DNA from: Alicyclobacillaceae bacterium | GTDB lineage: Bacteria > Bacillota > Bacilli > Kyrpidiales > Kyrpidiaceae | Direction of reading: 5' to 3' | Assembly: GCA_029961045.1 (NCBI GenBank) | Contig: JASBVN010000036.1 | Coordinates: 6,079-70,078 of the forward strand | Length of the DNA stretch: 64,000 nucleotides | In this document: positions 2,631 through 20,133 of the stretch, piece after piece | Layout: each line of letters begins with the position of its first letter | How positions within the stretch are numbered: position 1 is the first letter of the stretch | Made by a program: the position numbers and the translations under genes | The notes under the pieces: model-generated | Told to the model about the DNA's origin: nothing | Database searches by the model: none | Seen by the model: only the letters and a program-made list of their open reading frames with translations

Positions 2631-4442
2631 TCAGCTTCTGCCCGGCGCACTGTTCCGGATCTCCCTTTCCCGAAGCACCCGCTTCAAGACCTTTCCGGCG
2701 GCGCTCACCGGAATTTCGTCTACAAACGCCACCTCCCTCAATTTTTTGTACGGTGCCACCCGCTCGTTCACAAAGTTCATCAGGTCTTCGGCCGTCGCCC
2801 GTTCCCCGGCCTTCAACACCACGAACGCTTTGGGGATCTCGCCGACCTCCTGCACCGGTTTTCCGATCACCGCGGCATTTGCCACGGATGGGTGCCGGAA
2901 GAGGATCTCCTCCAGTTCCCGAGGATAGACGTTGTAACCTTTGTAGATTAACATATCTTTCTTGCGGTCGACGATATACACGTACCCGTCTTCGTCCATC
3001 ATCCCGATGTCTCCCGTATACATCCACCCGTCTTTCAACACGGAGGCCGTTTCTTCCGGTTGATTAAAATATCCCCGCATCACTTGAGGCCCCCGGATGC
3101 AAATCTCGCCGACCGCCTTCGGGGGCAACGGATCCCCGCACCCGTCCAACGACACGATTTTGCACTCGGTGTCAAAGACGGGGATGCCCACGCTGCCGGC
3201 TTTCCTCAATCCGCTTCGCCCCGCCGGATTGGAGATCGCTCCCATCGCGAGTTCCGTCATCCCGTACCCCTCCACCACCGTGGCCTCCGGAAAGAACTCC
3301 GTCAAGGCGCGGAAGATTTCCCCGGGAAGGGGCGCAGCTCCGGACGAAATCTGCCGGACGGATCGCAGATCCCGACGGGGGAGATCGGGATGGCGCAACA
3401 GGGCGACAAAGACCGGCGGGGCTCCCCCGATTGTCGTCACCCGCCTCCTCTCCGCCTCTTCCAGATACAAGCCCGGGTCAAAACGCGAGTGCAGAATCAT
3501 TTCGGCTCCGGTCAAAACTGGATGGTTGAGGTATCCGACGGTCCCCATGGCGTGGAACCAAGGCGTGATGTTGATCAGCACTCCTTTCCCGACGGGCACA
3601 CGGTACTCGGCGGATGGGCCGATCAGGGAGGGATCCGCCGGTCTTAACACCAGCCCGCCGTCCTCGACCGCCGGAAGACATCCCGTGCCCCAACAGGCAA
3701 ACTGCAAAGTGTTGACGACGACGTTATAATGGGTCAACATCACGCCTTTGGAACGGCCGGTGGTACCGCCGGTGTAGGCCAAGTGGGCCAAGTCTTCCAG
3801 AGGATCGACGGCCGCAGCCGGAGGACCGGGAGTTTCGTCCAGAACGAGCCGGCCAAAGCTGTACCATTTATTCCCTAGTGCCTCCGCATTCACCGGGCGG
3901 TACGGGGGACCGGCCTCCTCTTCTCCCGTCACCATCACAAAGCGCAACGGCGTGAGGGATTCGACCGACTGAAGGGCAGAGGCAAATCGCTCGTGGGTCA
4001 CGACCGCGGCGGCGCCGCAATCGTTGAGCTGATACGCGAGGTCGTCGGGGGGAAGAAGGGGGTTGACGGGAGAGAAAATCGCACCGCTCATCAGAATGCC
4101 GTAATAAGCTACGGCGTATTGCGGGGTGTTGTGCATGTGTACGGCGACCACATCCCCCTTCCCGATGCCTTTTTTGCGGAGGGCAACGGCAAAACGGAGA
4201 GAATTTTCATACAGTTCTCGGTACGTATGCCGATGGGGACCGTAGACCAATGCGGTTTTGTTCCCAAAGCGAGCCGCACTCCCTTTGATCACCGCCCAGA
4301 CGGGAACCTCTGGATAGGCGATACTCAAAGGCAAACCTTTCGGCCAATGCCGATGCCACAGTCGTTTATCCACTTTTCCCCACCTCTTCGACTCGAACTC
4401 CGGCGGAACCTTTGACAGAGACCTTCCAAACACGCGAACCAT
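2631..4442 (-). CDS. long-chain fatty-acid--CoA ligase
   Basis: YTGGTTGRSKGVMLTH, GYGMTE, TGDIGMMDEDGYVYIVDRKKDMLIYKGYNVYPRELE and SAAGKVLKR. Confidence 0.9.
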   Translation of the reverse strand: MVRVFGRSLSKVPPEFESKRWGKVDKRLWHRHWPKGLPLSIAYPEVPVWAVIKGSAARFGNKTALVYGPHRHTYRELYENSLRFAVALRKKGIGKGDVVAVHMHNTPQYAVAYYGILMSGAIFSPVNPLLPPDDLAYQLNDCGAAAVVTHERFASALQSVESLTPLRFVMVTGEEEAGPPYRPVNAEALGNKWYSFGRLVLDETPGPPAAAVDPLEDLAHLAYTGGTTGRSKGVMLTHYNVVVNTLQFACWGTGCLPAVEDGGLVLRPADPSLIGPSAEYRVPVGKGVLINITPWFHAMGTVGYLNHPVLTGAEMILHSRFDPGLYLEEAERRRVTTIGGAPPVFVALLRHPDLPRRDLRSVRQISSGAAPLPGEIFRALTEFFPEATVVEGYGMTELAMGAISNPAGRSGLRKAGSVGIPVFDTECKIVSLDGCGDPLPPKAVGEICIRGPQVMRGYFNQPEETASVLKDGWMYTGDIGMMDEDGYVYIVDRKKDMLIYKGYNVYPRELEEILFRHPSVANAAVIGKPVQEVGEIPKAFVVLKAGERATAEDLMNFVNERVAPYKKLREVAFVDEIPVSAAGKVLKRVLREREIRNSAPGRS

Positions 4443-4512
4443 TGCACACTCCCCTATATATTCTAGTATAGCATAGAAGCAGACAATACCGAACTATTTG
4501 AAATAAAAAACA

Positions 4513-11799: not shown

Positions 11800-13314
11800 A
11801 TGGATCAGACACCGGTGCGAGTCCGGTTCGCTCCCAGCCCGACCGGAGCGCTTCACATCGGCGGGGTTCGCACCGCCCTTTTGAACTGGTTGTTCGCCCG
11901 GCACTGCGGAGGCCGGATCGTATTGCGCATCGACGACACCGACTGGACCCGCTCGAACGAAATTTATTTGCGGAAAATCCTGGACGGCTTTCGGTGGCTC
12001 GGCATCACCTTCGACGAGGGAGTCGAGGAAGGGGGCGCTTACGGACCGTATCGCCAATCGGAACGGCTGCCGATCTACCGGCGCCACCTGGAGGCCCTGG
12101 TGCGGCGGGGCATGGCCTACCCTTGTTATTGTTCTCCGGAAGAACTGCAAGCCGTTCGGGAGAAGGCCCAAAGGGAAGGGCGAACTCCGCGCTATCCGAG
12201 GACCTGTTTGCACTTGTCGCCGGAGGAGCGGGCCAAGCGGGAAGCCGAGGGCCTCCGTCCGGTATACCGGCTCAAGGTCGATCTCGCCGAGCCGGTGGTG
12301 GTGGACGACCTGATCCGCGGCCCGGTGTCGTTTCCGCCGGACCAGGTCGACGACTTCGTGATCTTCAAAGGCGACGGCTGGCCCACCTACCATTTCGCCA
12401 CCGTGGTGGACGACCTGGAGATGAAAATCACCCACGTCATCCGGGCGGAGGAACATCTCTCCAATACTCCCCGCCACGTATTGTTGTTTCGGGCTCTCGG
12501 CGGACCGGTCCCCCGGTTCGCCCACGTGCCGATGATCCTGGCTCCCGACCGCTCCAAACTGAGCAAACGGCACGGAGCCACTTCGGTGGACGAATTTCGC
12601 CAGCTGGGATTTCTGCCCGAGGCGCTCGTAAACTATTGTTTGCTGCTCGGATGGTCTCCCGGCGACGGCGAAGAAATCCTATCCCTCGAAGAGGCCGTTG
12701 CACGATTTTCCATCGACAGGATCGTCAAGCACGCCGCGGTATACGATATGCAAAAATTGCGGTGGATCAACGGACACTATCTCCGTTCCCTACCCTTAGA
12801 ACGAATTTGGCAGGAAGCGCGACCTTTTCTCGTAGAGGCGGGGTACCTGCCCGAACGGCCGTCGGAAGCGGAGCAAACGCTGGCCCTCCGCCGGATTGCA
12901 GCGGTGCGGGAGCGGGTGCATACCCTGGAGGAATTGGTCGACGCCCTCTCCTACTTTTATCGCCCGGTGGAAACTTACGACGACAAAGGGGTCCGTAAGC
13001 ATTTCACCCGCCCGGGTACGGCGGAACTTCTCGAAGAGGCCGGCACCCGACTGGAGGCGGTGGAACCGTGGGATTTAGAGTCCACCGAAGGGGCCTGCCG
13101 GCAATTGATCGCCGAGAAGGGAATCAAAGGAGGAGATTTGATCCACCCCGTTCGACTGGCTCTGACCGGTCGCACGGTGGGGCCGGGGTTGTTCGACGTG
13201 ATGGTCCTGTTGGGCAAGGAGGAGACCTTGAATCGACTCCGGCGGGCAGCCGAATGGATTCGCACTCGCCCCTTCGCCGCGCCCGAATCGCCGGACGCCG
13301 ACCCCGTCCGGTGA
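11800..13314 (+). CDS. gltX: glutamate--tRNA ligase
   Basis: HIGH motif (PSPTGALHIGGVRTAL) and KMSKS motif (KLSKRHG). The ATG at 11800 follows GGGGAAGGAG. Confidence 0.93.
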   Translation: MDQTPVRVRFAPSPTGALHIGGVRTALLNWLFARHCGGRIVLRIDDTDWTRSNEIYLRKILDGFRWLGITFDEGVEEGGAYGPYRQSERLPIYRRHLEALVRRGMAYPCYCSPEELQAVREKAQREGRTPRYPRTCLHLSPEERAKREAEGLRPVYRLKVDLAEPVVVDDLIRGPVSFPPDQVDDFVIFKGDGWPTYHFATVVDDLEMKITHVIRAEEHLSNTPRHVLLFRALGGPVPRFAHVPMILAPDRSKLSKRHGATSVDEFRQLGFLPEALVNYCLLLGWSPGDGEEILSLEEAVARFSIDRIVKHAAVYDMQKLRWINGHYLRSLPLERIWQEARPFLVEAGYLPERPSEAEQTLALRRIAAVRERVHTLEELVDALSYFYRPVETYDDKGVRKHFTRPGTAELLEEAGTRLEAVEPWDLESTEGACRQLIAEKGIKGGDLIHPVRLALTGRTVGPGLFDVMVLLGKEETLNRLRRAAEWIRTRPFAAPESPDADPVR

Positions 13315-13369
13315 GCGGGCCGGCGTCCGACCTTTCAAGGGAGACGCTCGATTTCGCGAAAGACCGTGG

Positions 13370-13660
13370 CAGGAGATGACCGGTAGCCCGATGTGATGGA
13401 TGTGAGGAGTGGACCCCGGCGACGAGAAATTCAACAGGAGGCCCCGGCGGGTACGGAAACGCTCGCGGGCAGGACTGACGCTGGCGGTGTGTTTGGGGGC
13501 CTGGCGATCATTTGGATTCCGGGAAACCTGTACTGGTTGGCTTTTGTGCCGGAAGTTTTGCCTTTGCCGGTTTGTTGTTCGGAGGCGTTGGTGTTGGCAT
13601 TTGCGGCATACTGGGGTGGTTGATGCCTCGATATGTCGAACTTCTCGGCGCTTTGCCATG
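13370..13660 (+). pseudogene. degenerate inverted copy of the RBS and first ~90 codons of the 4-TM gene at 15402-15893
   Basis: Hand alignment to the reverse complement of 15618-15906 shows a 54-nt perfect block. The start codon is GTG->GTA. Two G-runs are shortened and there are other indels, so the copy is frameshifted. Confidence 0.8.
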
Positions 13661-13716
13661 GAATCACCCGACTCTTAATCGGATGGTTGGGGGTTCGATT
13701 CCCTCACGGCCCACCA
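13661..13716 (+). pseudogene. tRNA-Lys(CUU) 3' fragment (anticodon arm to CCA only), att-like scar
   Basis: Anticodon loop CTCTTAA, T arm GGGGG-TTCGATT-CCCTC, 3' acceptor strand ACGGCCC, discriminator A and CCA. There is no D arm and no complementary 5' acceptor strand upstream. Confidence 0.7.
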
Positions 13717-13890
13717 CGCATCACGGTGCCGTTCCCTTCGCTTACAAAACTTAGTCGTGTGGCCTTAACTCAATCCCTTTGCTGTTGGCTTCCGAAAACC
13801 GACGGCGAGGATTTTTTTGTGCTTTGTGGAGATCGGGCGGGTTCGCAGCCGGACCGACATTAGACACCCGCCCATCCGGCCCTAACCTCA

Positions 13891-13936
13891 GAAAAAAGAA
13901 AGGGGGCATCCTTCGTGCCTCCGTTTTCGCCCCCTT
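13891..13936 (-). terminator. rho-independent terminator of the islet operon
   Basis: The minus strand reads AAGGGGGC-(21-nt loop)-GCCCCCTT followed by TCTTTTTTC. Confidence 0.65.
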
Positions 13937-13974
13937 CCCAAATGGACCACCCGATTGGATCGCCCCCGGTCCGA

Positions 13975-14331
13975 TCAGATCCGGACGCGTTCGATCAGTT
14001 GTTCGACGGACGACCGGAGTTCCCGGATTTCCGCCTCGAGACGTTGCAATCGTTCCTCCAATTGACGGACATCGTTCCGGACGTCGGAAGAGACCCCCTT
14101 CCGGTTGGAGCGCCACCGCTGGAACCGCTCGAACAACAGCAACAGACTGGGATCATTGACCAGCACGTCAATGATCGCATCCTCGAAAGTTTCCTTGTAC
14201 CCGGGCATGCCGTGGTCTTTGCCGTACAACAAGTGTTTTTGCAACAGCTCCTGAATCCGGGGATTGTGTGGTCCGCCGCTCTGCCGGTAAAAGGCTTCAA
14301 TTCGTTCTTCCATCGTCATCTTTTCTGTCAT
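13975..14331 (-). CDS. hypothetical soluble protein with a C-terminal coiled coil
   Basis: 118 aa. The ATG at 14331 lies 6 nt after AAAGGTGGGG. The C-terminus DVRQLEERLQRLEAEIRELRSSVEQLIERV is heptad-like. I recognise no family. Confidence 0.6.
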   Translation of the reverse strand: MTEKMTMEERIEAFYRQSGGPHNPRIQELLQKHLLYGKDHGMPGYKETFEDAIIDVLVNDPSLLLLFERFQRWRSNRKGVSSDVRNDVRQLEERLQRLEAEIRELRSSVEQLIERVRI

Positions 14332-14379
14332 GAGACTCCCCACCTTTCTCCTCTCTCCTCCGTTTTGCTCGGCCGATGA

Positions 14380-15405
14380 TCAACGCCCGCCTCCCAAAAG
14401 AGGTTTAAGAAGATTGGCGAGATCCAAGGGCGGCGGTGCGGAATTTACCTTTGCCGAACGCTCCCTTTGGCCTTGGGTTGACCCGGTAGAGCCGGACCCG
14501 TACATTGTGCCGTACGAAGACCCCGATCCGGGGAAAAAGGGTATCATCAATTCTCTGGGCATCTCGTTGACGGGGAAAATTTGCATTCCCGACCGCTGTC
14601 CGGTCGAATCCCCCGAACCGCCGCCGGCCGGACCAGACCGGCTGGAGGATGCCGAACGTTGTTCGCGGTTTTCGCCATAACCGGACCTCGCCGCCGCACC
14701 ACCGGACGTCGCTTCCGCCGTTCCCGCCGCGGCGTTCCCCGGCGATTCCGCTTTTTTTCCACCGTCGCCTTGTGGTTCGGAACGGGCTTCCCCTTCCGTT
14801 TTTCCCGCTGCCTCCGATTGATTGCCGGACAACAGACCGTTGATCAAATCGGCCACTCCCTGGCCGTTGATGAGGGTCAGCGATCGCAAGTCGATGAGGG
14901 GCGCCGTCCCGGAATCTTCGATCCTTTTGTCTGTATGCAGGTTCATCGACGGCATCGACACATGGCCGGCCGCCAACCGGCTACAACGCAAGAATACGTC
15001 TTGGAGCGCCAGTTGGGGAATCGACACATCCAGCTTCAAGCCGAGTCCCCGGAGTCCCAGGGCTGTGACATCGGCCACCAAGTCGTCCAGGACCACCGGT
15101 CCGGGGCTGTCGATGCGCATCCCCCACGAAAAATCCGACTGTGTTTCCGACTGGTTGCGGATCAGGCGGAGGCCGTACGCGGTCGCCCGGCGAATTTGCA
15201 ACCGGATCACCAGGCCCCCATCGGAGCCGGTCGCCAAACTGGGCAACAACCCCTGCGCTTCAATCCGGTCTGCGCGCACGACAATCCCCGATGCCGGAGC
15301 GGATTCCTGCGCGGCCGCCGTACCCCTTTCCGGGACACCGGCCCCGAAGACCGCGACGAGGATCGCCGTGGTCCCGGTGATCCATCGCCTCATTCCCGCT
15401 TTCAT
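14380..15405 (-). CDS. hypothetical secreted protein with a Gly/Ser/Ala-rich C-terminal tail
   Basis: The start ATG overlaps the upstream TGA (ATGA). Signal-like N-terminus MKAGMRRWITGTTAILVAVFGAG. The last ~130 aa are low complexity. The tracked 506-aa ORF is an out-of-frame extension over the neighbouring gene. Confidence 0.65.
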   Translation of the reverse strand: MKAGMRRWITGTTAILVAVFGAGVPERGTAAAQESAPASGIVVRADRIEAQGLLPSLATGSDGGLVIRLQIRRATAYGLRLIRNQSETQSDFSWGMRIDSPGPVVLDDLVADVTALGLRGLGLKLDVSIPQLALQDVFLRCSRLAAGHVSMPSMNLHTDKRIEDSGTAPLIDLRSLTLINGQGVADLINGLLSGNQSEAAGKTEGEARSEPQGDGGKKAESPGNAAAGTAEATSGGAAARSGYGENREQRSASSSRSGPAGGGSGDSTGQRSGMQIFPVNEMPRELMIPFFPGSGSSYGTMYGSGSTGSTQGQRERSAKVNSAPPPLDLANLLKPLLGGGR

Positions 15406-15893
15406 CGATACCACCGGCTCCAAGCCCGGTCCTCCTTTGAAGGAAGGGTCCAGATCTCCCCTCCGCCGTCCCTCCCGGAAGCCGCTCCATCGGAAGCCAA
15501 TCGAGGAGCCCTTGTTTCGGGGCTCCACGCGATACACAGCGCTCCGCCGATCACGCTGAGGAGCGTGCCCACCACCATGCCGCCCAAGGCACCAATGATC
15601 GACACAATAGAGATAATCATGGCAAAAGCGCCGAGAAGTCTGACATATCGAGGCATCAACCACCCCAGTACGCCGCACGCCAACACCAACGCTCCGAACA
15701 ACAAACCGGCAAAGGCAAAACTTCCCGGCACAAAAGCCAACCAGTACAGGTTTCCCGGAATCCAAATGATCGCCAGGCCCCCCAAACACACCAGCGTCAG
15801 TCCCGCCCGCGGGCGGCTTCGCACCCGCCGGGGGGCCTCCTGTTGAATTTCCCCGTCGCCGGGGTCCACCTTCACATCCATCACATCGGCCAC
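15402..15893 (-). CDS. hypothetical 4-TM integral membrane protein
   Basis: GTG start 7 nt after GGAGGG. Four hydrophobic helices, for example LTLVCLGGLAIIWIPGNLYWL and LLGAFAMIISIVSIIGALGG. It may resemble DUF6114, from memory and unverified. Confidence 0.7.
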   Translation of the reverse strand: MADVMDVKVDPGDGEIQQEAPRRVRSRPRAGLTLVCLGGLAIIWIPGNLYWLAFVPGSFAFAGLLFGALVLACGVLGWLMPRYVRLLGAFAMIISIVSIIGALGGMVVGTLLSVIGGALCIAWSPETRAPRLASDGAASGRDGGGEIWTLPSKEDRAWSRWYR

Positions 15894-15906
15894 CGGTCAT
15901 CCCTCC
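15618..15906 (-). repeat. right arm of the ~290-bp inverted repeat (functional copy)
   Basis: Its reverse complement aligns with 13370-13660. Homology ends exactly where the left copy abuts the tRNA fragment. Confidence 0.8.
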
Positions 15907-15907
15907 G

Positions 15908-16456
15908 TCACTGTGTCGGATTCAACTGGAACTGCAACCCCATGCCCGGAAGCGAGATGCTGTTGGCAAACAGGTAATGCCCCTGAATCACGGGTTTTTT
16001 CAAAACGATATTGGCAGCCCCCAGGGAAAATTTCTGGGTCGGATCGCCGCTATTGTGCTCGGCGACCTCCAGTTTCGCAAAATCCCCGTCGGAATTCAGC
16101 CGGCTCAGGTCGAGGACCAACCCCGACGCCTTGACGTCCTGGGCCGCGGTGATCATCACCCGCACCTTCCCCTGACCGGCAAAGTCCACATCCTTGTAGA
16201 GCTTCAAGCCCTTGATGACCGCTTCGAGGTTCGCGGCCCCCTGAGGAAATCCATCGGTCTCACTGGTAGGCCCTATCTTGGGAAGCAGCTTGAAATTTTG
16301 AATATTAATCTCATCGGCCTCAATATAAAATCCCCCAATCCCCGCAATGGGGACCGCCAGGGCCACTCCGCCCTTCCAGATGCCCAACACCAACGCGAAC
16401 AACATGGCGAGGGCTCCCGTCATGCTCAACCAGAACCATTTCCACCGATATCGCAT
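15908..16456 (-). CDS. hypothetical N-terminally membrane-anchored protein
   Basis: 182 aa. The ATG follows GAGGGGGAGAG. One N-terminal TM helix (WFWLSMTGALAMLFALVLGIW) precedes a beta-rich-looking domain. It may resemble DUF6230, from memory and unverified. Confidence 0.7.
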   Translation of the reverse strand: MRYRWKWFWLSMTGALAMLFALVLGIWKGGVALAVPIAGIGGFYIEADEINIQNFKLLPKIGPTSETDGFPQGAANLEAVIKGLKLYKDVDFAGQGKVRVMITAAQDVKASGLVLDLSRLNSDGDFAKLEVAEHNSGDPTQKFSLGAANIVLKKPVIQGHYLFANSISLPGMGLQFQLNPTQ

Positions 16457-16566
16457 GCTTCTCTCCCCCTCTGACCCACAAGATCATCACGCCGGAACGA
16501 TCGCCGATCCGTCCCGGGCCGCTGCGCGGCCGGGCCAACCCGACCGACATTTGGTTACCCGGATCG

Positions 16567-18318
16567 CTACGCCCGCCGCGACCGGAGGACGCGCCACAGG
16601 ACGTAACAGCCCAGGATCGTGGAACCCCACAGCACTCCGGTAGTCAGTCCGCGCAACCCCGGGACCGTCTGGACCGCCGGCGACCCGAACGAGATCAAGA
16701 TCGTCCCTCCGGCGAAAAACCCGGCCGACAAGATCCCCAGGGTAAACCGGTTGACGATTTTATTGATCAACACCGAGGTATCCGGCGCCATCCGGGTCTC
16801 CACAATGAATTTCAAATCGTTCCAGGCCAGCTTCTCGAGTATTTTGTTGATTCTTCTAGGAAATGTTCCGATAAGTTTGGCTGTTTCCGTCAAAAAACTC
16901 GCATTGGCGCGGTAGTTGAATCGCCGCCCTAGCCACCGGCGTAAAATTTGGACATCGGCGCTCTCCACCACCGTGTGGTAGGTGATTTCCGGACACAGCC
17001 AGCGGGCCGTCCCCTCGGCCGCCGAAAATCCCTTGGCCCAAAGCGCCAACCCGTTTGGGATCCGGCAGTAGTTTTTCATGCCGATTGTAATAATCTGGAT
17101 GACAAGGTTTCCCCAGTTGTACCGGCTGGCCTGTTCGCTGTTGACGTAATGAATGAGCATCGACCGGAGCTGGTCTTTCAACTCGACCGGATCGGTATAG
17201 GGAGTCGGTTGAATGATATCCAGCGCCGCCTCCGCCGCATCTTCCGCCTGGTTCAACCGGCAGTGCAGGAGCAGACGGAAAATCGCCTCCGTGTGGATGG
17301 AATCCATCCGACCGACCATGCCCCAGTCGATCAACACCGCCTTTTTGGTGTTCCGGTCGATCATGATGTTGGAGCCGTGGGGGTCGGCATGGTAAAAACC
17401 TTCGAGAAACGTCTTGATATAATAATGCGCCAAGTCGGTCATTCGTTCGAATCGCTCTTCAAAGGTTAAGAAATCAACTGGAAATTCTTTTAAATTCCAA
17501 CCGTCGATATATTCCATGACGAGCACGCGCGGGGTCACATGGTACACCCGGGGAATGTGCATGGTGGCAAACTCCGCGGCAATCCGCCGGTGCTCGTCCA
17601 TGTTCTTCGCTTCTGTTCGCAGATCCAGTTCGTCCACCGAACTGCTGTAATAATCTTCAATCAACCCGGGCAGATCGACGGCCGCCGCCAGATTGGCCGG
17701 CAGTAGGCGCTGAACCCGCCGGACCAACCTCTTGATGATCTGGATATCCGTCTGAAACAGCTTATCTACCACGGGCCGGACCACTTTGACGGCACACATC
17801 CGCCCATCCCGAAGTTGCGCCTGATACACTTGGGCCAGCGAGGCCGAGCCCAACGGTTCGACTCGGATCCATTCGAAGGTATCCAGCCCTTCCTCCAGCT
17901 CGTCGTCGAGGATCGTGGCGATATACGGAAATGGCATCGGTGGAACCTGATCCAGCAACTCGGCCAGCTCCGTGGTGATCGGCTCCGGAATCAGCTCCTG
18001 GCGAGTGACCAACACCTGTCCCAACTTAATGAAGGTCGGCCCCAATTCTTCAAACACCAGTCGCAGCCGGCGACCAATTTGACGAAGTTGTTCATCTTCT
18101 TCCTGGGAGCGCCGGCGCCCGAATAGTTTCCACCACCTGCGATCCTGTAGCAGATGCAGCAGGCCGTGTTTCGAGAGCGTTCGGACGATGGCCCGATATC
18201 GCCTTCCCTTGGTGATCCTGCTGCGCATCTCCTCGATTTCCCGCCGAAAACGTTCCTTTTCATGGGGCAACAACCGAGTTCTCGACACTTGAATCCTCTC
18301 TGCCGAAGTCGCGCGCAC
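16567..18318 (-). CDS. ABC1/UbiB atypical kinase family protein
   Basis: FEELGPTFIKLGQVLVTRQELIPEPITTELAELLDQVPP and the HADPHGSNIMI kinase-like motif, with two C-terminal TM helices. Confidence 0.85.
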   Translation of the reverse strand: MRATSAERIQVSRTRLLPHEKERFRREIEEMRSRITKGRRYRAIVRTLSKHGLLHLLQDRRWWKLFGRRRSQEEDEQLRQIGRRLRLVFEELGPTFIKLGQVLVTRQELIPEPITTELAELLDQVPPMPFPYIATILDDELEEGLDTFEWIRVEPLGSASLAQVYQAQLRDGRMCAVKVVRPVVDKLFQTDIQIIKRLVRRVQRLLPANLAAAVDLPGLIEDYYSSSVDELDLRTEAKNMDEHRRIAAEFATMHIPRVYHVTPRVLVMEYIDGWNLKEFPVDFLTFEERFERMTDLAHYYIKTFLEGFYHADPHGSNIMIDRNTKKAVLIDWGMVGRMDSIHTEAIFRLLLHCRLNQAEDAAEAALDIIQPTPYTDPVELKDQLRSMLIHYVNSEQASRYNWGNLVIQIITIGMKNYCRIPNGLALWAKGFSAAEGTARWLCPEITYHTVVESADVQILRRWLGRRFNYRANASFLTETAKLIGTFPRRINKILEKLAWNDLKFIVETRMAPDTSVLINKIVNRFTLGILSAGFFAGGTILISFGSPAVQTVPGLRGLTTGVLWGSTILGCYVLWRVLRSRRA

Positions 18319-18386
18319 CTGATACAGCCTCCCATTTTCTGTATCCTAACCTACCCTCGGATTGCCGGAAAACCGGGCTACAAAGC

Positions 18387-18412
18387 GGAGCCTACCGCCG
18401 GCGATAGGCTCC
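18387..18412 (-). terminator. terminator-like hairpin between the ALDH operon and the kinase gene
   Basis: GGAGCCTA-(10 nt)-TAGGCTCC followed on the minus strand by GCTTTGT. The U-tract is weak. Confidence 0.35.
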
Positions 18413-18639
18413 GTTCGCAGCGCCATCCCAGCCGGCCTTAAGACACAAGCCCGTCCCGGACCTACTCTTTCAAAGACCCGGCACCCCTCCGCGTTTGAAG
18501 CCCTTTAGCCGGGTCCTGAATCGCCTCCGGAACAGACCGGGTCTTGCGGCGCGGCTGGCTCTATGTTAGAGAATTCGGAGAGAGGGTTTATTTTTTAAGG
18601 GGACAGGTCCTGCCATCGCGTCGTCGCATGGATTGCCTC

Positions 18640-20133
18640 TCAGGTCAGATTCACCCAAACACTCTTCACCTCGGTGTAATGTTCCAGAGCGTACCGCCCC
18701 ATTTCCCGGCCAAGGCCACTTTGTTTAAATCCGCCCCAGGGGCTGGTGGGGTCGAGGAGATTGTAACCGTTGATCCAAACCGTCCCCGCTCGCAATTCAT
18801 GAGCCACGCGAATGGCTTGCCTGACGTCCGACGTCCAGATACCGGCGGCGAGTCCGTAATCGGTGTCATTCGCCCGGCGAACGACGTCCTGCAGGCTTTC
18901 AAAGGGCATCACCGCCAGCACCGGGCCAAAGACTTCTTCCCTCGCAACCGTCATGTCATCCCGGGCCTCCAGCACCGTCGGCTCCACAAAATATCCGGAC
19001 GTGCCTTTGCGAATTCCCCCGGTCAGTCGTTTGGCTCCTTCTTCAAGGCCCTTCTCAATGTAACCCAACACCCGGTTCATATGCTGTTCACTCACCAGGG
19101 GACCCATTTGCGTGGCGGGATCCACCCCCACCCCTTGGCGAATGGCTTTGGCGCGATCCACCACCGCCTCCAGAACCCGGTCGTACACCTTTTTGTGCAG
19201 ATACAACCGCGACCCTGCGCAACAGACTTCCCCTTGATTGAAGAAGATACTCATCATAATGCCGCCGGCCACCATGTCCAGATCCGCGTCGGGAAACACG
19301 ATATTCGGCGACTTGCCTCCCAATTCCAAGGAAATGCGCTTGAAATTGTCCGCCGAGGCATGAACGATTTCCCGTCCTACCCGGGTGGAGCCGGTAAAAC
19401 TGATCTTATCCACCCCGCGGTGACGGGTCAGGGCCGCTCCCGCCGTGTGCCCGTACCCCGGGACCACATTGAGGACCCCCGGCGGAATGCCGGCCTCCAG
19501 AGCCAGCTCTCCCAAGCGCAAGGCGGTCAGCGGCGTCAATTCCGAAGGCTTTAATACGACCGTGTTTCCGCACGCCAGCGCCGGGGCGACCTTCCAAGAA
19601 GCGATCATGAGGGGGAAGTTCCACGGCACGATGGCCCCCACCACCCCCACGGGCTCCCGCCGGGTATAGACCAAATGCTGACCCGGCATTGAAACCGGAA
19701 GGTTTTCCCCGCTTAATTTCGTCGTCCACCCGGCGAAATACCGGAAGTGATCGACGGCGTACGGGATGTCCACTGCGGAGGTTTCGGAAATCGGTTTGCC
19801 GGTATCCAAAGACTCCAACTGGCTCAATTCCTCGGCGTGGGCCTCCAAAAGATCGGAGAGCTTCCACAGCAATCGGGCCCGTTCCATCGGACTGATGCTC
19901 TTCCAAGGGCCCTCCAGCGCCCTCCTGGCCGCTTGGACCGCGGCATCCACTTCCGGCTCTTCCGCTTCGTACAGCGTGGCCAACACCTCACCGGTAGCCG
20001 GGTCCACCGTTTGGAAGGTCTTCCCGGAGGCCGATGGCACCCACCGGCCCCCGATCAACATCTTCTTCGGCCCCGATTCGATAAACGCCCGGACGCGATC
20101 CGACACCACCGGGAGTTGCAACGTGCTGGTCAT
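18640..20133 (-). CDS. NAD(P)-dependent aldehyde dehydrogenase
   Basis: ELGGKSP and FFNQGEVCCAGSR (catalytic Cys region). The ATG at 20133 follows GAGGTG, 10 nt after the R2lox stop. Confidence 0.9.
   Translation of the reverse strand: MTSTLQLPVVSDRVRAFIESGPKKMLIGGRWVPSASGKTFQTVDPATGEVLATLYEAEEPEVDAAVQAARRALEGPWKSISPMERARLLWKLSDLLEAHAEELSQLESLDTGKPISETSAVDIPYAVDHFRYFAGWTTKLSGENLPVSMPGQHLVYTRREPVGVVGAIVPWNFPLMIASWKVAPALACGNTVVLKPSELTPLTALRLGELALEAGIPPGVLNVVPGYGHTAGAALTRHRGVDKISFTGSTRVGREIVHASADNFKRISLELGGKSPNIVFPDADLDMVAGGIMMSIFFNQGEVCCAGSRLYLHKKVYDRVLEAVVDRAKAIRQGVGVDPATQMGPLVSEQHMNRVLGYIEKGLEEGAKRLTGGIRKGTSGYFVEPTVLEARDDMTVAREEVFGPVLAVMPFESLQDVVRRANDTDYGLAAGIWTSDVRQAIRVAHELRAGTVWINGYNLLDPTSPWGGFKQSGLGREMGRYALEHYTEVKSVWVNLT

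What the first reader, a model, noticed from the sequence alone, without database searches (positions are those of the whole stretch)
13370..15906. ~290-bp inverted duplication of a gene 5' end brackets a 1.96-kb segment (fossil inversion or invertible element?)
13370-13660 (+) copies the RBS and first ~90 codons of the 4-TM gene, that is, the reverse complement of 15618-15906. My hand alignment shows long identical runs, including a 54-nt perfect block (gcctggcgatcatttggattccgggaaacctgtactggttggcttttgtgccgg).

The left copy is frameshifted. Its start codon is GTG->GTA, two G-runs are shorter (G6->G5, G3->G2), and there are further indels.

The two arms are inverted relative to each other and enclose 13661-15617. 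That segment holds the tRNA scar, the terminator, the coiled-coil gene, the secreted-protein gene and the 3' two-thirds of the 4-TM gene. Homology ends exactly at the junction with the tRNA fragment.

There are two readings. It may be a relic of the event that built the islet. Or it may be a substrate for homologous inversion that would uncouple three genes from their promoter and place them downstream of gltX.
Basis: partly seen in the sequence, partly recalled or inferred. Interest (0 to 1): 0.6.

Follow-up and report, generated by a model that had tools for sequence, protein, structure and literature searches.

The report
Repair scar that erased tRNA genes
A broken, backwards 294-base copy of the start of a membrane-protein gene sits where three tRNA genes used to be; it is most likely the leftover of one faulty DNA-break repair, not a working genetic switch.

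Summary
Window 13367-13660 (+) is an inverted pseudo-copy of 15618-15911, which holds the DUF6230 stop codon, the RBS and the first 92 codons of a DUF6114 gene. BLAST gives 90.75% identity over 292 nt (E 4e-104). There are only two copies in the genome.

The interpretation needs revising.
- The "islet" is not an islet. The four genes next to the ABC1 kinase gene are conserved in Kyrpidia.
- The tRNA-Lys(CUU) fragment is not an att scar. It is the last 52 nt of the ancestral gene, still in place. In every relative examined, gltX is followed by tRNA-Gln(CUG), tRNA-Glu(CUC) and tRNA-Lys(CUU).
- The left arm replaces that operon's promoter, two tRNAs and 24 nt of the third.
- A sister strain (2.3% divergence at four-fold sites) keeps the ancestral sequence beyond 13366, so the arm is derived.

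The layout, reverse-complement copy – 1,957-bp single-copy spacer – original, with a 4-nt filler, matches a fold-back or template-switch repair product. The copy carries too many errors for its apparent age.

I found no nearby recombinase, no second orientation in any assembly, and no conservation of the arrangement. This is a fossil of ordinary kind with modest interest. The scan has noted fold-back scars before on other DNA.

The parts
11800..13314 (+). gltX (glutamate--tRNA ligase, 504 aa), the conserved left neighbour.
   Evidence: Pfam tRNA-synt_1c E 7e-101 plus Anticodon_2. The best named relatives are Kyrpidia spormannii (74%) and K. tusciae (73%).
13275..13325 (+). Strong hairpin overlapping the gltX stop codon. 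The ancestral 3' flank continues to 13366.
   Evidence: Folding gives -42.3 kcal/mol, z -4.2. The sister-strain contig L019 matches the window up to 13366.
13367..13660 (+). Left arm: an inverted, frameshifted pseudo-copy of the DUF6230 stop codon, the RBS and DUF6114 codons 1-92.
   Evidence: Searches give 22 substitutions and 10 indel events against the source. It is absent at this position from the sister strain, whose sequence continues the homology to the Kyrpidia gltX flank.
13661..13664 (+). A 4-nt filler (GAAT) at the junction between the arm and the tRNA remnant.
   Evidence: It is not assignable to either parent sequence.
13665..13716 (+). Remnant of tRNA-Lys(CUU), nt 25-76: anticodon arm, variable loop, T arm, 3' acceptor strand and CCA. 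It lies in the ancestral position and orientation.
   Evidence: It is 52/52 identical to the Kyrpidia tRNA-Lys(CTT) that follows gltX-tRNA-Gln-tRNA-Glu. Rfam tRNA scores 22.9 bits, below the threshold. ARAGORN finds no tRNA.
13772..13818 (+). Terminator-like hairpin followed by U7, probably the native terminator of the lost tRNA operon.
   Evidence: Folding gives -16.9 kcal/mol with a stem followed by UUUUUUU. The assignment is an inference.
13892..13939 (-). Terminator of the DUF6230-DUF6114-secreted-coiled-coil operon. The sister strain diverges from the window immediately after its U-run, at 13892/13893.
   Evidence: Fold. L016 matches window 18934-13893 and then differs.
13661..15617 (.). 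Single-copy spacer of 1,957 bp between the arms (the fold-back loop in the proposed model).
   Evidence: Geometry.
13975..14343 (-). Coiled-coil protein gene (122 aa).
   Evidence: ORF. It is 77% identical to its K. tusciae counterpart.
14380..15405 (-). Secreted 341-aa protein gene. Its start overlaps the DUF6114 stop.
   Evidence: ORF and gene calls. There is no Pfam hit.
15402..15893 (-). Intact DUF6114 four-TM protein gene (163 aa).
   Evidence: PF19609 E 3.9e-21. The identical protein occurs in two independent Logan assemblies.
15618..15911 (-). Right arm: the source sequence of the duplication. It is native on both flanks.
   Evidence: It is identical in the sister strain.
15908..16456 (-). 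DUF6230 membrane-anchored protein gene (182 aa), the first gene of the operon.
   Evidence: PF19741 E 4.9e-7.

Best explanation
This is a rearrangement scar with no present function.

Ancestral layout. In the ancestor, gltX was followed by its own hairpin, a promoter, then tRNA-Gln(CUG), tRNA-Glu(CUC), tRNA-Lys(CUU) and a terminator. This unit converged tail-to-tail on the DUF6230-DUF6114-secreted-coiled-coil operon.

The event. A DNA break or collapsed fork in the tRNA operon was repaired by microhomology-primed, templated synthesis in inverted orientation, either by fold-back/snap-back or by a strand switch.
- About 294 nt were copied backwards, from the inner edge of the present right arm (15618) outwards to the DUF6230 stop codon (15911).
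- The new DNA was then joined to the other broken end at 13366.
- The product is reverse-copy – 1,957-bp single-copy spacer – original.
- The cost was the tRNA promoter, two tRNA genes and the first 24 nt of tRNA-Lys.

State of the copy. The copy carries about 30 errors. Either it was made by error-prone repair synthesis, or it has decayed since.

What is shown and what is inferred. Shown: the structure, the ancestral state, the derived status in this lineage, and the loss of the tRNA genes at this locus. Inferred: the repair mechanism and its timing.
For: - Arms: 292 nt at 90.75% identity, E 4e-104, and only two copies in the genome.
- The right arm is native on both sides and sits in an intact DUF6114 gene. 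The left arm has two novel junctions.
- gltX followed by tRNA-Gln(CTG), tRNA-Glu(CTC) and tRNA-Lys(CTT) is seen in K. tusciae and K. spormannii. A third Kyrpidia genome and a 78%-identity relative show its start before their contigs end. The window keeps only nt 25-76 of tRNA-Lys, in the same place and orientation.
- A sister strain (four-fold-site divergence 2.26%) matches the window up to 13366. It then continues with sequence homologous to the Kyrpidia gltX 3' flank. The arm is therefore derived.
[quoted passage not shown] Human examples have spacers of 766-70,466 bp (PMC3907307). In yeast, fold-back synthesis is combined with second-end capture by end joining (PMC11724301). SD-MMEJ is described in PMC2943611.
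- A 4-nt filler sits at one junction, and an imperfect 4-nt match (ACCG/ACAG) at the other.
- Ku is encoded in the genome.
- The copy has far more changes than neutral divergence since the strain split predicts: 14-22 substitutions against 3-6 expected, P 6e-3 to 5e-12. It has 10 indels, whereas the two strains differ by only 2 single-base gaps and one ~85-bp indel across ~16.6 kb. The adjoining 52-nt tRNA remnant has none (P 0.003-0.013). This fits error-prone synthesis of the copied stretch only.
- Neither of the two recombinase families searched (PF00589, PF00239) has a match on this contig.
Against: - Microhomology at the priming junction is at best 1 bp plus a filler, so the mechanism is read from geometry alone.
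- The excess of differences can also be explained by an older duplication, with the sister strain's allele exchanged by recombination.
- Differences between the arms are unevenly spread. A 90-column stretch has at most one difference (permutation P 0.003). This could be a later gene-conversion tract, which would mean the arms have interacted since.
- It is not shown that locus A and locus B are adjacent in the sister strain, because both of its contigs end within 50-470 nt of the breakpoints.
- The two novel junctions rest on one assembly of an 80%-complete MAG. No reads could be examined.
Confidence: 0.62

Rival explanations
1. An old segmental inverted duplication that has simply decayed. 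The copy arose several times earlier than the split of the two known strains and accumulated its differences at the neutral rate. The sister strain regained the ancestral gltX flank by homologous recombination with another lineage. It is still a fossil; only the timing differs, and the claim of error-prone synthesis is dropped.
For: - Left-derived substitutions of about 5% are 4-5 times the per-lineage four-fold-site divergence.
- Divergence between the strains is locally raised next to the locus: 3 differences in the last 92 nt before 13366, and 2.4% in 13893-14860 against 1.1% further out. An exchanged tract would look like this.
- Third-codon positions carry 9 of 18 coding substitutions.
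Against: - The 52-nt tRNA remnant beside the arm is untouched (P about 0.003-0.013 at the arm's rate).
- The ratio of 10 indel events to 22 substitutions is far above what the two strains show elsewhere.
- It needs a recombination endpoint exactly at the arm's edge.
Confidence: 0.2
2. A live substrate for RecA-dependent inversion. Crossing-over in the 54-nt or 34-nt identical blocks flips 13661-15617 at low frequency. This disconnects the DUF6114 3' part and the secreted and coiled-coil genes from the DUF6230 promoter, and places them behind gltX. It would be a crude on/off switch for an envelope operon.
For: - The geometry allows it.
- The longest identical blocks are 54 and 34 nt.
- A 90-column near-identical core (P 0.003) could be a gene-conversion tract, which would show that the arms have paired.
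Against: - The left copy is a frameshifted pseudogene with a mutated start codon (GTG->GTA), so most products would be dead genes.
- The arrangement is not conserved in the sister strain or in any relative examined.
- The three assemblies that cover the right arm all show one orientation, and contig L017 passes both arm boundaries without a break.
- No dedicated recombinase was found nearby.
- From my own knowledge, 9% divergence and identical blocks of 54 nt or less sharply depress RecA recombination in Bacillota.
Confidence: 0.07
3. An assembly artefact. The MAG contig is a chimera that joins gltX, a DUF6114 fragment from another population member, and a tRNA-containing contig.
For: - The genome is a 55-contig, 79.6%-complete MAG.
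- The two novel junctions were not found in any other assembly or collection.
- The Logan contig L017 stops inside the tRNA remnant, at 13688.
Against: - The arms are 91% identical, not 100%, and lie 13-16 kb into the window, in the interior of a 112.8-kb contig. Fold-back chimeras are perfect and sit at contig ends.
- The left arm carries 10 frameshifting indels, so it is a pseudogene wherever it lives, not a piece of another organism's working gene.
- The tRNA remnant lies where the ancestral tRNA-Lys should be relative to gltX: 351 nt after the stop codon, against about 346 nt in K. tusciae.
- The rest of the contig is base-perfect against an independent assembly.
Confidence: 0.05
4. An att scar of an excised or decayed tRNA-integrating island, with the left arm as island cargo.
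For: The retained piece (anticodon stem to CCA) is the part of a tRNA that tyrosine-integrase elements typically duplicate.
Against: - There is no second copy of the 52 nt and no intact tRNA-Lys(CUU) in the assembly.
- The only tyrosine recombinases are two on another contig.
- The fragment lies in the ancestral gene's own position.
- The supposed island genes are syntenic chromosomal genes in Kyrpidia.
- The neighbouring arm is a copy of a resident gene 2 kb away.
Confidence: 0.04

Closest known systems
Fold-back (snap-back) inverted duplications with a single-copy spacer. Examples: human inv-dup chromosomes (PMC3907307); yeast fold-back templated insertions with second-end capture by NHEJ or alt-EJ (PMC11724301); SD-MMEJ snap-back synthesis in Drosophila (PMC2943611).
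   Same: - The inverted copy and its source are separated by a single-copy spacer.
- The junction links the broken end to the spacer-proximal edge of the duplicated stretch.
- A short insertion sits at the junction.
- Sequence is lost at the break.
- The spacer of 1,957 bp falls inside the human range of 766-70,466 bp.
   Different: - This is a bacterial chromosome.
- The copied stretch is only about 294 nt and ends by capture of the second end, not by running to a chromosome end.
- It is much longer than the 5-34 nt yeast events.
- Microhomology at the priming site is not evident.
- The copy is heavily mutated.
Campylobacter fetus sap locus: RecA-dependent inversion between oppositely oriented sapA homologues that share conserved 5' regions (from my own knowledge; no paper was retrieved).
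   Same: Inverted copies of a gene's 5' end bracket a segment. Homologous recombination between them would re-couple genes and promoter.
   Different: - Here one copy is a 294-nt frameshifted stub, not an alternative full-length gene.
- The promoter is outside the bracketed segment.
- There is no conservation among strains.
- No second orientation has been seen.
Displaced tRNA 3' fragments at integration sites of tyrosine-integrase islands.
   Same: An orphan 3' part of a tRNA gene (anticodon stem to CCA) lies next to non-tRNA DNA.
   Different: - There is no integrase, no direct repeat partner and no intact tRNA.
- The fragment is the in-place remnant of the chromosomal gene.
- The adjoining DNA is a copy of a resident gene, not foreign cargo.
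Break-induced replication and other error-prone repair synthesis that leave mutation clusters (from my own knowledge).
   Same: There is a local excess of substitutions and, above all, frameshifts, confined to the newly made stretch. The flanking old DNA (the tRNA remnant and the gltX flank) is clean.
   Different: The timing is not proven, so decay over a longer time can mimic it. No polymerase is identified.

Membership tests
Fold-back / templated inverted-insertion repair scar | Layout rc(D)-spacer-D, with the novel junction joining the far end of the spacer to the spacer-proximal edge of D. | tested here: met
   Left-arm base 13660 corresponds to 15618, the base next to the spacer's inner end at 15617. 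The spacer's other end is the tRNA remnant.
Fold-back / templated inverted-insertion repair scar | The ancestral, unrearranged state is known, and sequence is lost at the break. | tested here: met
   gltX-tRNA-Gln-tRNA-Glu-tRNA-Lys is found in the relatives examined. The sister strain keeps the ancestral flank beyond 13366. The window lacks the promoter, two tRNAs and 24 nt of the third.
Fold-back / templated inverted-insertion repair scar | Short inverted microhomology, or a small insertion, at the junctions. | tested here: inconclusive
   There is a 4-nt filler GAAT at the arm/tRNA junction, and at most 1 bp of clean microhomology. The gltX-side junction has an imperfect ACCG/ACAG match.
Fold-back / templated inverted-insertion repair scar | Source and break lie on the same molecule, within resection distance, at the time of the event. 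| tested here: inconclusive
   Convergent terminators at 13772-13818 (+) and 13892-13939 (-) suggest a native tail-to-tail junction. Adjacency in the sister strain could not be shown.
Site-specific invertible DNA switch (Hin/Fim/shufflon type) | A dedicated recombinase gene at or near the element. | tested here: not met
   PF00589 hits lie only on contig C34. One weak PF00239 hit lies on C33. Neither has a match on C30.
Site-specific invertible DNA switch (Hin/Fim/shufflon type) | Both orientations are present in a population. | not testable with these tools
The contigs (C30, L017, L016) show one orientation only, and contigs drop rare variants.
RecA-dependent gene-5'-end inversion system (C. 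fetus sap type) | Two or more intact alternative genes share the conserved 5' region. | tested here: not met
   The left copy is a 294-nt stub with a mutated start codon (GTG->GTA) and 10 indels.
tRNA-targeting integrative island (att scar) | A direct repeat of the tRNA 3' part, with an intact tRNA at the other end and an integrase inside. | tested here: not met
   The 52 nt occur once, and no tRNA-Lys(CTT), tRNA-Gln(CTG) or tRNA-Glu(CTC) is in the assembly. No integrase is on the contig. Caveat: the assembly is 79.6% complete.
tRNA-targeting integrative island (att scar) | The enclosed genes are foreign and variable among relatives. | tested here: not met
   The four genes lie beside the ABC1 kinase gene in K. 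spormannii (same order) and K. tusciae (rearranged order).
DUF6114 (PF19609) for the right-arm gene | A match over Pfam's gathering score. | tested here: met
   76.1 bits against a cut-off of 27.9, E 3.9e-21.

The most novel reading that the evidence does not exclude
The copy was born mutated. On this reading a recent fold-back or template-switch repair, after the split from the sister strain, wrote about 20 substitutions and 10 frameshifts into 294 nt. The old DNA on both sides stayed clean. A possible trail of GC->AT changes was left in the first kilobase of the looped-out spacer. That would make it a natural bacterial example of a repair-synthesis mutation cluster, caught in a thermophilic spore-former, which also cost the cell three tRNA genes.
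Probability: 0.3. Interest if true: 0.5.

Novelty: new member of a known kind. Interest (0 to 1): 0.3.

Why it matters
- It corrects the reading of the locus. There is no islet and no att site; there is a broken tRNA operon.
- It documents, with a known ancestral state and a near-identical unrearranged sister strain, a templated inverted insertion in a bacterial chromosome. This class of rearrangement is well studied in yeast, flies and humans, but seldom pinned down in wild bacteria.
- It predicts that this organism decodes CAG, GAG and AAG without the C-starting anticodon tRNAs, unless copies exist in the unassembled fifth of the genome.
- As a candidate regulatory device it is weak.

Tried and rejected
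- Exact-protein look-ups of gltX and of ORFs spanning the left arm and its junction found nothing. A 52-aa ORF in the 176-nt stretch after the tRNA remnant is only in L017.
- Junction-specific and flank-specific patterns gave 0 hits in JGI metagenome contigs and GTDB genome contigs.
- No third strain was found in the 90% clusters of the four operon proteins.
- Polarising the window/sister differences in the spacer with Kyrpidia as outgroup failed: 21 of 32 sites were undecidable.
- A strand bias of G->A over C->T in the arm (9 against 1) is not significant once base composition is allowed for (Fisher P 0.10). I dropped it as evidence.
- A DGR-like adenine-specific pattern and a retro-copy primed on the tRNA were both considered. 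I rejected them because the changes are not at adenines and the tRNA piece is in its ancestral place.
- A staggered-break simple inversion was rejected because the left arm has two novel flanks, not one.
- No paper was found on DUF6114 or DUF6230 function or on the C. fetus sap inversion in the held library.
Full report
**1. The observation**

The region was read and searched for repeats.
- A MAFFT alignment and blastn against the whole assembly agree. Window 13375-13660 (+) matches 15618-15901 (-) over 292 columns at 90.75% identity, with 13 mismatches and 10 gap openings, E 4e-104.
- No third copy exists in the 2.19-Mb, 55-contig, 79.6%-complete assembly. The window is C30:6079-70078.
- A global alignment of 13367-13660 with rc(15618-15911) has 265 identical columns of 301, with 22 substitutions and 10 indel events.
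- With K. spormannii as outgroup, every indel and 14 of the 18 substitutions that can be polarised fall in the left copy. The four apparently right-derived sites are about what chance homoplasy gives.

So the left arm is a decaying or damaged copy of the resident gene's 5' end.

**2. The genes**

On the minus strand lie:
- an ABC1/UbiB-type kinase gene (18318..16567);
- a DUF6230 gene (16456..15908, PF19741);
- a DUF6114 four-TM gene (15893..15402, PF19609, E 3.9e-21);
- a 341-aa secreted protein gene (15405..14380);
- a 122-aa coiled-coil protein gene (14343..13975).

gltX is at 11800..13314 on the plus strand. The copied stretch starts at the DUF6230 stop codon (15908-15910) and ends in DUF6114 codon 92.

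**3. The organism and its relatives**

The gltX product is closest to Kyrpidia spormannii (74%) and K. tusciae (73%) among named organisms. The genome search places the genome in the same family but in a genus of its own.

In both complete Kyrpidia genomes, gltX is followed by tRNA-Gln(CTG), tRNA-Glu(CTC) and tRNA-Lys(CTT).
- In a third Kyrpidia genome, tRNA-Gln follows gltX at the contig edge.
- In a 78%-identity relative from a Logan assembly, tRNA-Gln and the start of tRNA-Glu follow gltX before the contig ends.
- The cluster is single-copy in both complete genomes.

Window 13665-13716 is identical, 52 of 52, to nt 25-76 of that tRNA-Lys. It has the same orientation and almost the same distance from the gltX stop: 351 nt, against about 346 nt in K. 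tusciae. ARAGORN finds no tRNA in the window. Rfam's tRNA model scores 22.9 bits, below threshold. Neither the two other tRNAs nor the 5' part of tRNA-Lys is anywhere in the assembly.

The tRNA fragment is therefore the in-place remnant of an ancestral gene, not a displaced att copy. The left arm occupies the place of the tRNA promoter, tRNA-Gln, tRNA-Glu and 24 nt of tRNA-Lys.

**4. The "islet"**

In K. spormannii the order ABC1 kinase, DUF6230, DUF6114, secreted protein, coiled-coil protein is the same as here. In K. tusciae the order is ABC1 kinase, secreted, coiled-coil, then a diverged DUF6230 and a long DUF6114-ending protein. The genes beyond the kinase (aldehyde dehydrogenase and others) are also syntenic. 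The four genes are thus old chromosomal residents of the family.

What differs among genomes is the neighbour on the coiled-coil side. In Kyrpidia that side carries genes that lie on contig C52 in this genome, and the gltX locus is about 460 kb away.

**5. A sister strain**

Exact-protein look-ups found two Logan contigs that carry the identical DUF6114 protein.
- L017 (SRR24392716) is 100% identical to window 16978-13688. It stops 29 nt into the tRNA remnant. A k=31 graph would break there if another tRNA-Lys-like 3' end exists in that sample (the explanation is an inference).
- L016 (SRR21197399) is 98.7% identical to window 18934-13893. It then diverges right after the U-run of the coiled-coil operon's terminator, into AT-richer DNA with a weak ParE-toxin-like remnant.
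- The same run holds a gltX contig, L019, found through the 90% cluster of the gltX protein. It matches the window up to 13366 and then diverges.
- Its 47-nt continuation aligns with the hairpin region that follows gltX in Kyrpidia. So at the left junction the sister strain has the ancestral sequence and the window has the novelty.
- Four-fold degenerate sites differ by 2.26% between the two strains (59 of 2,608). Other coding sites differ by 0.80%.

**6. Anatomy of the junctions**

- Left junction: the ancestral sequence ...GAAAGACCG reads on as TGGCAGGAG... in the window, whereas the source reads ...ACAGTGACGGAGG.... The match ACCG/ACAG is imperfect.
- Right junction: the arm ends ...TTTGCCATG (13660 = rc of 15618). 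GAAT follows, and then CACCCGACTC... of the tRNA.
- Terminators: a plus-strand hairpin with U7 at 13772-13818 looks like the lost tRNA operon's own terminator. The minus-strand terminator of the envelope operon is at 13939-13892. Two convergent terminators about 70 nt apart suggest that the tail-to-tail contact of the two transcription units predates the event.

**7. The mechanism (inferred)**

The layout is rc(D)-spacer-D. The base of the copy next to the spacer's far end corresponds to the base of D next to the spacer's near end. That is what fold-back priming produces:
1. a break at tRNA-Lys nt 24/25;
2. resection of at least 2.25 kb;
3. the 3' end snapping back and priming at 15617/15618;
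4. synthesis outwards for about 294 nt;
5. capture by the other end, which had been trimmed back to 13366.

A strand switch of the left 3' end onto single-stranded plus-strand DNA at 15911 gives the same product.

The same architecture is documented for human inverted duplications, with spacers of 766-70,466 bp (median 3,428 bp) and either 2-8 bp microhomology or small insertions at the junction (PMC3907307). It is also documented for yeast fold-back insertions finished by NHEJ or alt-EJ (PMC11724301), and for SD-MMEJ (PMC2943611). The genome encodes Ku. The weak point is that I see no convincing microhomology at the priming site, only a 4-nt filler.

**8. Age, and an oddity**

If the event followed the split from the sister strain, 3-6 neutral substitutions and well under one indel are expected in the arm. 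Observed are 14-22 substitutions and 10 indels (Poisson P 6e-3 to 5e-12). The two strains differ by only 2 single-base gaps and one indel of about 85 bp in 16.6 kb. The 52-nt tRNA remnant next to the arm has no change at all (P 0.003-0.013 at the arm's rate).

Two readings fit.
- The copied stretch was made by error-prone synthesis and was born mutated.
- The duplication is several times older than the strain split, and one strain's allele was swapped by recombination. The tRNA remnant would then be kept intact by chance or by conversion from an unseen tRNA copy.

The differences are also uneven. A 90-column core has at most one difference (permutation P 0.003). This could be a later conversion tract or uneven error-making.

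**9. Is it a switch?**

- Neither recombinase family searched (PF00589 tyrosine, PF00239 serine/resolvase) has a match on the contig.
- The left copy cannot supply a working 5' end.
- The arrangement is missing from the sister strain and from all 40 relatives searched.
- Every assembly that covers the right arm shows the same orientation, and L017 crosses both arm boundaries without a graph break.
- The identical blocks (54 and 34 nt) could still support rare RecA crossing-over.

I put an active switch at about 7%.

**10. Artefact?**

Fold-back chimeras made during amplification or assembly are perfect and terminal. Here the arms are 91% identical and lie 13-16 kb into the window, in the interior of a 112.8-kb contig. 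The copy carries frameshifts, and the tRNA remnant is where it should be. I put an artefact at about 5%. The two novel junctions nevertheless rest on one assembly.

**11. Verdict**

The best reading is a rearrangement scar of a known kind that erased a three-tRNA operon, with no present function. Interest is modest at 0.3. The case is unusually well framed by an ancestral state and an unrearranged near-identical strain. The error-laden copy is the one feature that might repay a closer look.

The scan has reported fold-back scars before on other DNA (e1-652877, e1-1278217).

Noticed in passing
window 13893-14860: Against the sister strain, this first kilobase of the spacer has 23 differences (2.4%, against 1.1% in 16000-18934; Fisher P 0.007). 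In 18 of 21 transitions the window has A/T where the sister has G/C (binomial P 0.0015). This could be a trail of damage from the repair event, an exchanged recombination tract, or fast evolution of the low-complexity C-terminus of the secreted protein. Polarisation with Kyrpidia failed.
   Followed up: partly
L016:5043-5515 (sister strain, SRR21197399): Directly after the coiled-coil operon's terminator the sister strain carries AT-richer DNA that is absent from this assembly. It includes a short ORF with a weak ParE/RelE-toxin-like end, GLRSSRVGDWRILFTVNE (Pfam ParE_toxin E 0.024, below the cut-off). It is probably an insertion between the two convergent terminators.
   Followed up: partly
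L013:8400-12240 (K. tusciae) against L015:7570-10150 (K. spormannii): The order of the two gene pairs differs within Kyrpidia. K. tusciae has kinase, secreted, coiled-coil, then a diverged DUF6230 (41% identity) and a 350-aa protein whose C-terminus is DUF6114-like. K. spormannii has the order seen in this window. The locus has been rearranged more than once in the family.
   Followed up: partly
window 13688 (end of Logan contig L017): The independent contig stops 29 nt into the tRNA remnant. This is expected from a k=31 graph if another sequence with the same tRNA-Lys 3' end, such as an intact gene, exists in that sample.
   Followed up: no
window 4425-4509: The window has about 85 nt that the sister-strain contig L019 lacks. 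The alignment breaks between 4424 and 4510.
   Followed up: no
window 14380-15900 (-): A 506-aa open frame overlaps the whole DUF6114 gene in another frame. It is most likely a high-GC artefact, with the real secreted-protein gene starting at 15405, where a signal peptide begins.
   Followed up: no
whole assembly G000: Only 19 tRNA genes were found, and none for Gln or Glu. The assembly is 79.6% complete, so the tRNA complement cannot be judged.
   Followed up: partly
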